From a virus (lineage: Duplodnaviria; Caudoviricetes): 64,000 nucleotides of DNA. The notes below the pieces were generated by a model that had not been told where the DNA came from, did no database searches, and saw nothing but the letters and a program-made list of their open reading frames with translations. Both the position numbers and the translations under genes were made by a program. Location of the stretch: the IMG/VR virus record IMGVR_UViG_3300047463_000166, positions 95 to 64,094 of that record; one strand, 5' to 3'. This document shows positions 5,296-7,966 of the stretch, one piece after another; the stretch's first letter is position 1, and each line of letters opens with the position of its first letter.

Positions 5296-5431
5296 ATGCG
5301 TCGAAGGGTATTTTCTTAGGGATCATTCTGTCGATCGTGTTGTGGTTTTTGTTGACAGTCGGAGCCGTAACGGTGTGGTCATGGCTGACAGGATAACATC
5401 GGTACGTGACTGTGTCGCGCATTTGTCTGAG

Positions 5432-5506
5432 GCCGACGTAGCTCAATGCTAGAGCAGCGGTTTTGTAAACCGTAGGTTGGAGGTTGGAGTCCTCTCGTCG
5501 GCTCCA
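5432..5506 (+). tRNA. trnT: tRNA-Thr(TGT)
   Basis: Acceptor GCCGACG/CGTCGGC, anticodon loop TTTGTAA, encoded CCA; atypical C19/G56. Confidence 0.9.
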
Positions 5507-5565
5507 TTCGAGCGGTTCCGGTACGACGGCAGGATGTTGAACGATCCACACGCAGGAGACAAGAA

Positions 5566-5751
5566 ATGAAGCCGATCAAGCGCGTCTATCAACTTGTATT
5601 CGTGATGGTCGATGGTGCTGAATTGGCCTGGAAGATCTTCTCGAAGATCGAACACTACGAAGCCTACGTAGAAGGACTGAACGAGGAACACCTGAGACGG
5701 TTGGGCATCTCTGCCATTCGATATCGGATGCACTACATCGATCCTTTTTGA
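5566..5751 (+). CDS. Hypothetical protein between tRNAs
   Basis: RBS AGGAG. Confidence 0.55.
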   Translation: MKPIKRVYQLVFVMVDGAELAWKIFSKIEHYEAYVEGLNEEHLRRLGISAIRYRMHYIDPF

Positions 5752-5920
5752 GGAGGTCATCATGGTAATGGCACGAAAGAATGAAGACCATAAGTTGCTT
5801 GTGCTCGAAGGGTTCAAGAGTGGGTTCATCAAAGTGGCAATCGACTATGATGATGTGCCCCATGAGGAAGTTGAGGCGTGGACGATGGAGTTGATCGAGG
5901 TTCTGAATAACAACGGATTT

Positions 5921-5997
5921 TGAGGGGTAGCCAAGTCGGTACGGCACCTGACTGTTAATCAGGAGACGCGCAGGTTCGAGCCCTGCCCCCTCAGCCA
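5921..5997 (+). tRNA. trnN: tRNA-Asn(GTT)
   Basis: Acceptor TGAGGGG/CCCCTCA, CCTGA-CTGTTAA-TCAGG, T-loop TTCGAGC, G73, CCA. Confidence 0.93.
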
Positions 5998-6007
5998 GAT
6001 ATCGATT

Positions 6008-6120
6008 TGGGTGATGGTGTAGAAAAACACAACCGGCATGGACCGGAAGAGGTAGGAGTTTCTAGGGATAGACGTTGGAACGTACGTGAAATCCCCTAGC
6101 TTGTACTACTCATCCAGCCA
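6008..6120 (+). ncRNA. tRNA-like RNA with shortened anticodon arm and hairpin-extended T arm
   Basis: TGGGTGA/TCATCCA-G-CCA acceptor; GTGT/ACAC D stem; CCGG/CCGG stem; GTAG/CTAC T stem enclosing a CTAGGGAT/ATCCCCTAG hairpin. Confidence 0.65.
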
Positions 6121-6141
6121 CACACGAAAGACAAGATTGTA

Positions 6142-6693
6142 ATGCGTTGGTTTATCTCAGATCTACATTTCGGCCATAAAAACATCATTGACTACTGTTC
6201 GAGGCCGTTCCAAACCGCTGAAGAGATGGATCAGGCAATGATGGTGCAATGGAATATGACCATTCATCCTAGCGATCATGTGTACGTTGTCGGTGACGTG
6301 ACGTTCCACAGTCCAATGAAGACCGATGAGATCCTCAGCCAGTTGAACGGGCGTAAGCATTTGATCTTAGGTAATCACGACTACGATAAGAAGAAGGTGA
6401 AGGGCTCGCTCAAGAAACACTTCGTTACGATCGAAGAATCAGCGACGTTATTGATCGAGGGAGTGAATCGGAACGCGCATATGTTTCACTTCCCGTTATT
6501 TGGACGAGATAAGCCGAAGATCATGATCCACGGTCACTCACATAATTATCGACCGTTGGTGACGACATACGAGACGACAGGGCAGCTACTTATCAACGTG
6601 AGCGTCGAGAACATTGAGTACACGCCGATATCCGAAACACGAATTGCGGATTTCATCAAACAGCATGAGGATTTTCTGAGGGGTGGGGTATGA
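6142..6693 (+). CDS. Calcineurin-like metallophosphoesterase
   Basis: SDLHFGH, VGDV, GNHD and HGHSH motifs. Confidence 0.9.
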   Translation: MRWFISDLHFGHKNIIDYCSRPFQTAEEMDQAMMVQWNMTIHPSDHVYVVGDVTFHSPMKTDEILSQLNGRKHLILGNHDYDKKKVKGSLKKHFVTIEESATLLIEGVNRNAHMFHFPLFGRDKPKIMIHGHSHNYRPLVTTYETTGQLLINVSVENIEYTPISETRIADFIKQHEDFLRGGV

Positions 6694-6826
6694 AGAAAGA
6701 GTCCCAGGATCAGGTTGTCTTGGTGACGTTGGAATCGTCTCTGTCTCAGTGGGAGACAGACCGTACATTGTTCACAGCATTAGGTATGAAGGTTCACTCT
6801 ATTCGTACAATCAAAAGGAGGCCGTC

Positions 6827-7966
6827 ATGGAAAAGATCATCGACAACAGAGTGATCGTGGTTGCAGTCGAGCACGTCGAGAAACATCCGAACGCTGACCG
6901 ACTGGACATTGCTCACTTTGCAGGTTGGAACGTCGTCACGCAGAAAGGAAATTTCTCCCCTGGCGATCGGGCTGTGTATTTGCCGATCGACTCCGTACTT
7001 CCGAAGGAGTTGGAGCTTGAATTGTTCCCACCGGAAAGCAAGATCAAGCTCTCGAAGAGCCGGATCAAGACGATCAAGATCCGAGGCGCGATCAGTCAGG
7101 GGATGTTGGTACCGGCTACCGATCAATCGATCGTGTCGCGCTGCGGTCAGGTATTCATCGGTGACGACATCACCGACAAGCTCGGAGTCACGAAATACGA
7201 GCCACCGGTTGAGCAGACTCCTCCTCGGCTTGGTGTGGCGAAGGTCAGGAAGAAACATCCATTCTTCCCTGAGTACGGCAAGATCAGTCACCTGAAGAAC
7301 TACCCTGACCTTTTCCAAGAGGGTGAGAAGGTTGTGGTGACGGAGAAGATTCACGGCACGAACTTCAGAGCGGGATGGGTGCCGATCGAACTCAATACGG
7401 TGTGGAAGCGGATTAAGTATATGCTTACAAAGCTCATCGGCAGAGCGCAAAAGTGGGAGTTTGTGTTTGGCTCCCATCATGTCAACATTGCCGACAAAGG
7501 ATTCAACAACGGATTCTATCCGAAGAACGTCTATGAAGAGACGGTCGTGAACTACGGGCTCCGTCATAATATCCCGATGGGTTTTGTGATCTATGGGGAG
7601 ATCTACGGCTCCGGCATTCAGAGCGGTTATAGCTACGGGCTTGATGCTCAGGAGCACCGGCTGGCAATCTTCGACGTGTTGGTGACGAACGACAGAGGCG
7701 AGCAATTCTATCTTGATTGGCACGGCGTCGATCATTTTGCACGAGCCACAGGTCTTCCGCTTGTGCCGGTGCTGTACAAGGGTTCGTATAAACCGGAAAT
7801 TATCAACGATTGGGTTGAAGGTGCCTCAATACTTGACCCTAAGCAGAAAGTGCGTGAGGGCTGCGTCATTAAGCCGGAGGTCGAGACGAAGTGTTGGATT
7901 GGCCGGAAGATGCTGAGGGCGATCAATCCTGAGTATCTTCTGAAAGATCAGAGTGAGTGGCACTGA
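6827..7966 (+). CDS. ATP-dependent RNA ligase (Rnl2/DRB0094-like) with N-terminal OB-fold
   Basis: HPNADRL, KIRGAISQG, motif I TEKIHGTN, YGEIYG, FDV, REGCVIKP; RBS AAGGAGG. Confidence 0.9.
   Translation: MEKIIDNRVIVVAVEHVEKHPNADRLDIAHFAGWNVVTQKGNFSPGDRAVYLPIDSVLPKELELELFPPESKIKLSKSRIKTIKIRGAISQGMLVPATDQSIVSRCGQVFIGDDITDKLGVTKYEPPVEQTPPRLGVAKVRKKHPFFPEYGKISHLKNYPDLFQEGEKVVVTEKIHGTNFRAGWVPIELNTVWKRIKYMLTKLIGRAQKWEFVFGSHHVNIADKGFNNGFYPKNVYEETVVNYGLRHNIPMGFVIYGEIYGSGIQSGYSYGLDAQEHRLAIFDVLVTNDRGEQFYLDWHGVDHFARATGLPLVPVLYKGSYKPEIINDWVEGASILDPKQKVREGCVIKPEVETKCWIGRKMLRAINPEYLLKDQSEWH

What the first reader, a model, noticed from the sequence alone, without database searches (positions are those of the whole stretch)
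6008..6120. tRNA-like RNA with intact stems and CCA end but remodelled loops and a hairpin replacing the T-loop
Seen: 10 nt after tRNA-Asn lie an acceptor stem TGGGTGA/TCATCCA + G + CCA, a D stem GTGT/ACAC with a loop lacking GG (AGAAAA), and an anticodon stem CCGG/CCGG with only a 6-nt loop (CATGGA). The T stem GTAG/CTAC encloses about 50 nt that fold as CTAGGGAT/ATCCCCTAG with an inner ACGTT/AACGT. U1-A72 and G73 resemble tRNA-Gln/Asn. All stems still pair, which argues against random decay. It sits directly upstream of a phosphoesterase and an RNA ligase. Inference: either a tRNA mimic or decoy against host tRNA-targeting defence, or a precursor whose insert is excised and religated by the phage enzymes.
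Basis: partly seen in the sequence, partly recalled or inferred. Interest (0 to 1): 0.8.

Follow-up and report, generated by a model that had tools for sequence, protein, structure and literature searches.

The report
Non-decoding tRNA-shaped phage RNA family
This is a real gene for a tRNA-shaped RNA that cannot read codons; its T loop is replaced by a small, almost invariant folded module that many unrelated phages also carry, and what that module does is unknown.

Summary
Window 6008-6120(+) folds as described, and ARAGORN and Rfam do not call it. It is not decay. I collected 15 distinct full-length relatives from unrelated uncultivated phages. All five helices covary: 94.8% of cells paired against 70.7% in shuffles, and 24 of 30 pairs changed on both sides. 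U8, G10, U11, A14 and the CCA end are invariant. The anticodon-like loop varies in length and sequence, so the RNA cannot decode.

The hairpin that replaces the T loop is a portable module: helix-GAU-AGAC-N-GGAAC-N-GUGAA-AUC-C-helix. It also occurs in short acceptor-stem RNAs and just 3' of GOLLD RNAs.

Splicing by the neighbouring ligase is not supported. None of 9 other records has an RNA ligase, including two complete phages that have no tRNA at all. No joint was seen in the contigs laid.

Best reading: a tRNA frame used for processing and stability, carrying a docking module for a conserved host component. The target is unknown.

This scan had noted the same module before on other DNA. I found no Rfam family and no paper for it.

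The parts
6008..6120 (+). whole tRNA-shaped RNA gene (113 nt), third gene of the tRNA-Thr / tRNA-Asn / X cluster
   Evidence: matched end to end by model R1, which was built from other phages' copies (51.1 bits, E 3.9e-10)
6008..6014 (+). acceptor stem 5' strand; pairs with 6110-6116
   Evidence: 7 pairs, 100% of cells paired, 6 of 7 pairs changed on both sides among 15 sequences
6015..6031 (+). U8-G9 linker, then D arm GTGT/ACAC with loop AGAAAA (no GG)
   Evidence: T8, G10, T11 and A14 invariant in 14 of 14 sequences; D-stem compensatory change GTGT/ACAC to GTCT/AGAC in L018
6032..6047 (+). anticodon-like arm: A.A plus CCGG/CCGG, with the 6-nt loop CATGGA
   Evidence: all 6 stem pairs change on both sides; loop length and sequence vary across the family
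6052..6055 (+). 4-bp stem GTAG in the T-stem position; pairs with CTAC 6106-6109 and abuts the acceptor 3' strand
   Evidence: all 4 pairs change on both sides, 95% of cells paired
6056..6061 (+). 5' strand of the internal loop (GAGTTT); the opposite strand is CTTGTA 6100-6105, a possible T-loop remnant
   Evidence: sequence; compared with relatives (TTCAAA in L095, TTCGCA in subfamily 2); the remnant reading is inference
6062..6099 (+). module arm: stem CTAGG (6062-6066) with CCTAG (6095-6099), enclosing the conserved module
   Evidence: stem covaries (CTAGGG/CCCTAG to CAGGGG/CCCCTG in L018; helix 5 has 7 of 10 pairs changed on both sides)
6067..6094 (+). conserved module GAT-AGAC-GTT-GGAAC-GTAC-GTGAA-ATC-C
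   Evidence: pattern hit at 6067; the same module is in 22 distinct viral stretches, all 22 followed by a C the pattern did not ask for
6110..6120 (+). acceptor 3' strand TCATCCA, discriminator G6117, encoded CCA
   Evidence: CCA invariant; the two neighbouring tRNAs also encode CCA

Best explanation
Window 6008-6120 is a working gene of an undescribed family of phage small RNAs. Each is a tRNA frame that no longer decodes and carries a conserved RNA module where the T loop should be. Shown: the frame keeps a 7-bp acceptor stem, an unpaired discriminator, an encoded CCA, U8, G10-U11, A14, a D stem, a variable hairpin in the anticodon position, and a 4-bp stem stacked under the acceptor stem. 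The module is a hairpin arm whose top reads GAU / AGAC-N(2-8 or a hairpin)-GGAAC-N(3-6)-GUGAA / AUC-C. The same module is carried on other frames: short acceptor-stem RNAs ending in NCCA, and a hairpin directly 3' of GOLLD. Inferred: the RNA is transcribed with the tRNAs and cut out by the host's tRNA-processing enzymes (RNase P at the 5' end, 3' trimming to CCA), which gives a stable 113-nt RNA. The frame serves as a processing and stability handle. The module is the working part and docks onto something conserved in the host rather than in the phage, because carrier phages share no detectable protein. The most likely target is a component of tRNA handling or translation. My structural guess for the module is GAU/AUC pairs, then a 3x3 purine loop (A.A, G.A, A.G), then a C-G pair, then a terminal loop that displays GAAC. 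The target and the effect on infection are not known.
For: No tRNA or Rfam call. The relative L018 sits directly after tRNA-Asn/Asp/Ala, has the same 113-nt length, and shows compensatory changes in every stem. 15 distinct full-length members were collected. 13 of 14 fold alone into the same four-arm shape. RNAalifold on a plain MAFFT alignment finds changes on both sides in 15 of 19 pairs. On the model-fitted alignment 94.8% of cells pair against 70.7% in shuffles, 24 of 30 pairs change on both sides, 0 of 500 shuffles reach this, and slid controls give 30-51%. For the module, the strict pattern gave 27 viral stretches and 22 distinct hits. All 22 are followed by an unrequested C, and 13 of 22 have at least 4 flanking pairs. 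In the far larger genome collection the figures are 11 of 22 and 1 of 22. The module lies 12-23 nt after the end of the GOLLD model in 4 of 4 GOLLD loci found. The short variant L080 has a sigma70-like promoter, whereas the window copy has none of its own. The C of AGAC becomes U in two lineages (L090; L087/L124/L140), which keeps a U.G pair with the G of GUGAA. Carrier phages are unrelated: window ORFs match only L018 among 17 sources, and the two complete genomes share one ORF with each other. Two complete phages carry the RNA but have no tRNA and no RNA ligase. No listed difference falls inside 6008-6120 in one RNA-library contig and one DNA contig that differ from the window in the flanks.
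Against: Nothing here shows the RNA's ends, its abundance, any binding partner or any phenotype. The RNA-library contig could derive from DNA, and contigs cannot show ends. The module's invariance is partly forced, because members were found with a pattern that fixes those letters. Only L090 was found by the model alone. The proposed fold of the module rests on two C-to-U changes and no true double change. The alignment used was fitted to the structure, which favours it. 'Docks onto a host component' is an argument by elimination from BLASTP-level comparison; a fast-evolving phage partner would be missed.
Confidence: 0.55

Rival explanations
1. The module is an RNA-RNA device. Either it is a tRNA-elbow look-alike or elbow binder (T-loop based), or it is an assembly contact that ties these small RNAs to tRNAs, to each other, or to GOLLD cages.
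For: The invariant UGAAA fits the UG..A pentad of T-loop 2 in the double T-loop module, as given in passages of PMC3664808. The module replaces exactly the T loop in a frame whose D loop has lost its GG. It also flanks GOLLD, an RNA shown to assemble through loop contacts (section 7 of PMC12286853). PMC4919913 (passages) says such elbow-binding motifs are worth seeking in viral RNAs.
Against: The second core pentad, AG..A, is not present consistently: the base after AGAC is A, G or U among the copies printed (my tally from that print, about half A). The window genome has no GOLLD.
Confidence: 0.15
2. It is a decoy that soaks up a host defence factor aimed at tRNAs. This is the first reader's option 1, widened from anticodon nucleases to factors that read the acceptor end or the tRNA body.
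For: The acceptor stem, NCCA, U8 and A14 are kept. In the window lineage it sits at the head of an RNA-repair island: phosphoesterase and ligase in the window, and additionally HAD_PNKP and RlaP in L018. That toxins exist which modify or cut tRNA 3' ends is recalled knowledge, not from a call.
Against: The anticodon-like loop is not conserved, so it is not bait for an anticodon nuclease. A plain decoy does not explain an invariant 28-nt module that also occurs on non-tRNA frames. The repair genes are absent from 9 of 9 other records searched.
Confidence: 0.12
3. It is a tRNA precursor whose insert is cut out and the halves rejoined by the adjacent phosphoesterase and RNA ligase.
For: In the window the element lies next to the two enzymes. 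The 3' strand of the internal loop resembles the remains of a T loop in some members (TTCAAA in L095).
Against: Deleting the arm leaves a 4-bp stem with a 12-nt loop, and the anticodon loop is still 6 nt, so no functional tRNA would result. The insert is the most conserved part. 0 of 9 other records have the ligase. No joint appears in the contigs of the 2 RNA-library and 2 DNA runs laid.
Confidence: 0.03
4. It is a decaying pseudo-tRNA or a chance fold.
For: It is missed by the tRNA finders, and the single-sequence z-score is only -1.98.
Against: There are 15 distinct members in unrelated phages with compensatory changes in all helices. It is present as the only tRNA-like gene in two complete phage genomes.
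Confidence: 0.01

Closest known systems
Phage T4 species 1 and species 2 stable RNAs (rnaC, rnaD) of the T4 tRNA cluster
   Same: They are small RNAs of about 120-140 nt encoded among phage tRNA genes; the T4 record annotates them as 'small, stable RNA'. That they are processed from tRNA transcripts and that their function is unknown is recalled, not from a call.
   Different: There is no sequence or structure relation. Model R1 finds nothing in the T4 region at E up to 10, and the module is absent from the T4 sequences read.
Canonical bacterial/phage tRNA (Rfam RF00005)
   Same: 7-bp acceptor stem, discriminator, encoded CCA, U8, A14, a D stem, four-arm layout, and a position inside a tRNA cluster.
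   Different: No 7-nt anticodon loop, no GG in the D loop, no T arm, and no score from ARAGORN or RF00005.
GOLLD RNA (Rfam RF02032)
   Same: A phage RNA of tRNA islands with unknown function. The same module hairpin follows the GOLLD model by 12-23 nt in L059, L077, L078 and L088.
   Different: The window has no GOLLD. The element is 113 nt and tRNA-shaped. The module lies outside the Rfam GOLLD model.
[quoted passage not shown]
   Same: A compact, purine-rich, almost invariant RNA fold tied to tRNA biology; the UGAAA pentad is shared.
   Different: The second invariant pentad (AG..A) is not met, and there is no structural evidence.
Engineered 'tRNA scaffold' for expressing foreign RNA (recalled; no paper read)
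   Same: A tRNA body is used so that an inserted RNA is processed and kept stable.
   Different: That method is laboratory-made and inserts the cargo in the anticodon arm. This element is natural and carries its cargo in the T loop.

Membership tests
Canonical tRNA (RF00005) | 7-bp acceptor stem with unpaired discriminator and CCA | tested here: met
Canonical tRNA (RF00005) | 5-bp anticodon stem with a 7-nt loop, U33 and a readable anticodon | tested here: not met
   The window has a 6-nt loop CATGGA; loops are 4-8 nt and unconserved in the family
Canonical tRNA (RF00005) | T arm (5 bp plus 7-nt T loop) and GG in the D loop | tested here: not met
   no ARAGORN or RF00005 match even at E up to 10
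Intron-bearing tRNA (precursor to be spliced) | Removal of the insert restores a canonical tRNA | tested here: not met
   What remains is a 4-bp stem with a 12-nt loop and a 6-nt anticodon loop
Intron-bearing tRNA (precursor to be spliced) | A joined (spliced) form exists in RNA | tested here: inconclusive
   No joints in the contigs of 2 RNA-library and 2 DNA runs; contigs drop rare forms
T4 rnaC/rnaD-type stable RNAs | Encoded inside a phage tRNA cluster | tested here: met
T4 rnaC/rnaD-type stable RNAs | Homology to the T4 RNAs | tested here: not met
   R1 finds no match in L074; sequences read
T4 rnaC/rnaD-type stable RNAs | A stable processed RNA species in infected cells | not testable with these tools
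   Only contigs of an RNA library were available
GOLLD (RF02032) | Match to the GOLLD model | tested here: not met
   (whole window, gathering threshold)
[quoted passage not shown] | Six invariant core residues, AG..A plus UG..A (PMC3664808, passages) | tested here: not met
   UGAAA is present and invariant. No AG..A pentad: the base after AGAC is A, G or U among the copies printed
[quoted passage not shown] | Interdigitated T-loop geometry | not testable with these tools
tmRNA / Y RNA / RNase P RNA | Match to the family models | tested here: not met
   ARAGORN finds no tmRNA in the window; no Rfam hit at E up to 10 on the element or on two relatives

The most novel reading that the evidence does not exclude
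Phages of many lineages share a portable 28-nt RNA module, mounted on a tRNA frame, on a mini acceptor helix, or on the 3' flank of GOLLD. It acts as a tRNA-corner mimic or clamp. Through it these RNAs would engage a universal part of the host's tRNA or ribosome machinery, or assemble with tRNAs or GOLLD cages. That would give the first functional handle on the 50-year-old puzzle of extra small RNAs in phage tRNA clusters, and on GOLLD itself.
Probability: 0.15. Interest if true: 0.85.

Novelty: new variant of a known kind. Interest (0 to 1): 0.7.

Why it matters
Extra stable RNAs in phage tRNA clusters have been known since T4 (recalled) and have no assigned function. This element belongs to a well-supported family that spans unrelated phages, and standard annotation misses it. 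It links three contexts through one almost invariant module: tRNA-shaped RNAs, short CCA-ended helices and GOLLD. That makes the question testable, because one small module can be mutated, pulled down or solved. It also shows that some phages with no tRNA genes at all still carry a tRNA-shaped RNA. This argues for a role other than codon supply.

Tried and rejected

One search used a pattern with one N too many, which was my mistake. It still hit a few true members that have a 5-nt spacer. I corrected it.

Of the two 18-mer hits, L033 lies in coding DNA and I treat it as chance. Most genome-contig hits lack flanking stems and I treat them as chance; L107 and L098 look real. L085 and L091 carry the motif with no clear stem and remain unclassified.

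Ideas rejected:
- The inner ACGTT/AACGT hairpin is not conserved.
- A pair between the C of AGAC and the first G of GGAAC is contradicted by U..U in L087/L124/L140.
- A double T-loop fails because the AG..A pentad is missing.
- A resemblance to part of 5S rRNA that I recalled got no support from Rfam, so I dropped it.
- Pairing of the UGG in the anticodon-like loop with a CCA end is seen only in the window's subfamily and does not track each copy's own discriminator.
- An earlier scan note read an RNase P RNA in a stretch overlapping near-identical copies of the L059 element. Rfam is silent there. In L079, L082 and L083 the element directly follows a tRNA, so it is a separate unit.

I tried to fetch a T-box for comparison, but no locus was returned.

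RNA-library cover: the contig over the element stops at 6132 and the next one starts at 6185. A gap between contigs proves nothing and I do not use it.

Supplementary Table 4 of PMC12286853 would show whether the solved GOLLD construct includes the module hairpin.

Literature searches that found no description of this family.

Full report
What is there. Window 6008-6120(+) is the third unit of a small cluster: tRNA-Thr (5432-5506), tRNA-Asn (5921-5997), then this 113-nt element 10 nt later. All three end in an encoded CCA. The window is nearly all of a 64,094-bp virus record. The minimum-free-energy fold is the described four-arm shape, at -35.5 kcal/mol. On its own this is only moderately unusual: z = -1.98, and 9 of 200 shuffles fold as well. 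ARAGORN and Rfam, at the gathering threshold and at E up to 10, call only the two true tRNAs. Downstream lie a calcineurin-like phosphoesterase and an RNA ligase (PF09414 plus a PHA02142 OB fold). The element has no promoter-like or terminator-like site of its own on the + strand.

Relatives. An alignment of phosphoesterase homologues brought in a metagenome contig, L018. There a 113-nt homologue lies 3 nt after a tRNA-Asn/Asp/Ala array, about 2.4 kb upstream of the phosphoesterase. The two copies differ by compensatory changes in the acceptor stem, the D stem (GTGT/ACAC to GTCT/AGAC), the anticodon-like stem and the long arm (CTAGGG/CCCTAG to CAGGGG/CCCCTG).

The top of the long arm was identical in both copies, so I searched for it. 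An 18-mer found an AT-rich large phage (L032/L035). After one mistyped pattern, the pattern GATAGAC-N(2-7)-GGAAC-N(3-6)-GTGAAATC found 27 viral stretches. These give 22 distinct hits. All 22 are followed by a C that the pattern did not require, and 13 of 22 have at least 4 uninterrupted flanking pairs once that C is skipped. The much larger collection of prokaryote genomes gave 23 stretches and 22 distinct hits; 11 of 22 are followed by C and 1 of 22 has such a stem. The motif is therefore strongly enriched in viruses.

By my reading, the 22 viral hits divide as follows:
- 11 tRNA-shaped RNAs like the window's
- 5 hairpins next to GOLLD
- 4 other frames (L044, L080, L062, L032)
- 2 unclear (L085, L091)

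The family. Fifteen distinct full-length tRNA-shaped members were collected: the window, L018, L086, L089, L107, L095, L059, L076, L079, L081, L082, L083, L092, L093 and L090. L090 was found only by the covariance model R1, which was built from eight members of another subfamily. R1 matches the window end to end at 51.1 bits. Thirteen of 14 sequences fold alone into the same four arms; L086 is the exception. RNAalifold on a plain MAFFT alignment predicts 19 pairs, 15 with changes on both sides. On the model-fitted alignment, 94.8% of 441 cells are standard pairs against 70.7% in shuffles. 24 of 30 pairs change on both sides, 0 of 500 shuffles reach any measure, and sliding the partners by 1-3 columns gives 30-51% pairing. 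That alignment leans towards the structure, but the MAFFT result agrees with it.

Invariant positions outside the module are G2, U8, G10, U11, A14 and CCA. These include residues that, from textbook knowledge, hold the tRNA core together (U8-A14). The hairpin in the anticodon position has loops of 4-8 nt with no common sequence; only the window's subfamily shares AUGG or GUGG. The RNA therefore keeps a tRNA body but cannot decode.

The module. In all members the arm ends in GAU-AGAC-N-GGAAC-N-GUGAA-AUC-C, with covarying stems below it. The first spacer can hold a whole hairpin (33 nt in L090; 8 nt in L123), so it is a terminal loop. In two lineages the C of AGAC is U (L090; L087/L124/L140), which keeps a wobble pair with the G of GUGAA. 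The first G of GGAAC can be U. My working fold is therefore GAU/AUC pairs (with the extra C bulged), three purine-purine oppositions, a C-G pair, and a loop displaying GAAC. This fold is inference.

The module is portable. In L080 and L044 it sits on a 5-6-bp acceptor-like helix ending in NCCA, and L080 has a sigma70-like promoter (10 of 12 matches). In L059, L077, L078 and L088 it forms a covarying hairpin that starts 12-23 nt after the end of a full-length GOLLD match. The GOLLD paper describes stems P1-P27 and no such hairpin in section 7, which I read. I could not see its construct sequence because supplements were closed.

Tests of the proposed functions. Splicing by the neighbouring enzymes:
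- The ligase was found in 0 of 9 other element-bearing records. L083's record was not held. Two of the nine are 100%-complete genomes of 46 and 40 kb, and these also have no tRNA at all.
- In L018 the island is larger: HAD_PNKP, RlaP, phosphoesterase and ligase. The link to RNA repair is therefore real for this lineage but not for the family.
- Laid contigs show one RNA-library contig running unbroken from 5612 to 6132, with all six of its differences outside the element. One DNA contig runs from 5432 to 6700, and none of its listed differences falls inside the element. There are no joints.
- These are contigs, and the RNA library may hold DNA. They show no splicing but cannot exclude a rare form.

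Anticodon-nuclease decoy: the loop is not conserved, so this version is unlikely.

Partner protein: window ORFs match only L018 among 17 sources, and the two complete phages share one ORF with each other. Any common partner is therefore more likely a host component than a phage one.

What is known. T4's rnaC and rnaD are the classic analogues, but they are not related to this element. No Rfam family matches the window copy or two relatives. Six literature searches found no description. The double T-loop module that binds tRNA elbows shares the UGAAA pentad but not the AG..A pentad (passages of PMC3664808; PMC4919913).

Earlier notes of this scan. The same module was seen on other DNA as a 'tRNA-shaped phage RNA with a rebuilt T loop' (e1-6119511, e1-5798004), so the scan has found this before. 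Two other notes read a stretch overlapping near-identical copies of the L059 element as a phage RNase P RNA. I could not confirm this with Rfam. The element is a separate unit, because in L079, L082 and L083 it directly follows a tRNA.

Verdict. The element is a real, conserved, non-decoding tRNA-shaped RNA gene. It is most likely a tRNA frame that delivers a conserved docking module, and the target is unknown. The family and its structure are near certain. The mechanism is inference.

Noticed in passing
L018:804-4690: In the window's relative the tRNA cluster and the element are followed by a fuller RNA-repair set: HAD_PNKP phosphatase (804-1250), an RlaP nucleotidyltransferase (1793-2785), a metallophosphoesterase and an RNA ligase. 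The window has only the last two next to the element.
   Followed up: partly
window 6683-7966: The RNA ligase has an N-terminal PHA02142 OB fold with a weak hit to the tRNA_bind domain (PF01588, E 0.0086, below the cut-off).
   Followed up: no
L059:9057-9576: About 520 nt between a weak tRNA match and the element has no Rfam match. By eye it holds words that recall the RNase P P4 helix. Earlier scan notes read a near-identical region of another genome as a reduced phage RNase P RNA. Not verified here.
   Followed up: partly
L035:7160-7340: Directly after the module-bearing RNA of this AT-rich large phage lie two tRNA-looking stretches that end in CCA (one with a GTT anticodon loop, one with GAT). 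Neither ARAGORN nor Rfam calls them. The first one's 5' acceptor strand overlaps the closing helix of the module RNA.
   Followed up: no
L059, L077, L078, L088: Full-length GOLLD matches (194-218 bits). Three of the four (L059, L077, L088) have a tRNA embedded.
   Followed up: partly
L038, L057, L079, L082, L083, L090, L093: tmRNA genes lie close to the tRNA-shaped RNA in subfamily-2 phages.
   Followed up: no
L080:8243-8322 (- strand): A short variant of about 77 nt: a 6-bp acceptor-like helix, the module arm, then NCCA. It has its own sigma70-like promoter and is followed by a tRNA.
   Followed up: partly
L086:2754-3236: An open frame runs through the element. The real gene probably starts at the ATG that overlaps the CCA end. 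An HNH endonuclease gene lies just upstream.
   Followed up: no
window 5400-6700 in public runs: Near-identical DNA is held by runs labelled freshwater, aquatic, sediment, wastewater, estuary and seawater, from 11 studies. 13 rows hold half or more of the sampled words. Only four runs were laid.
   Followed up: partly
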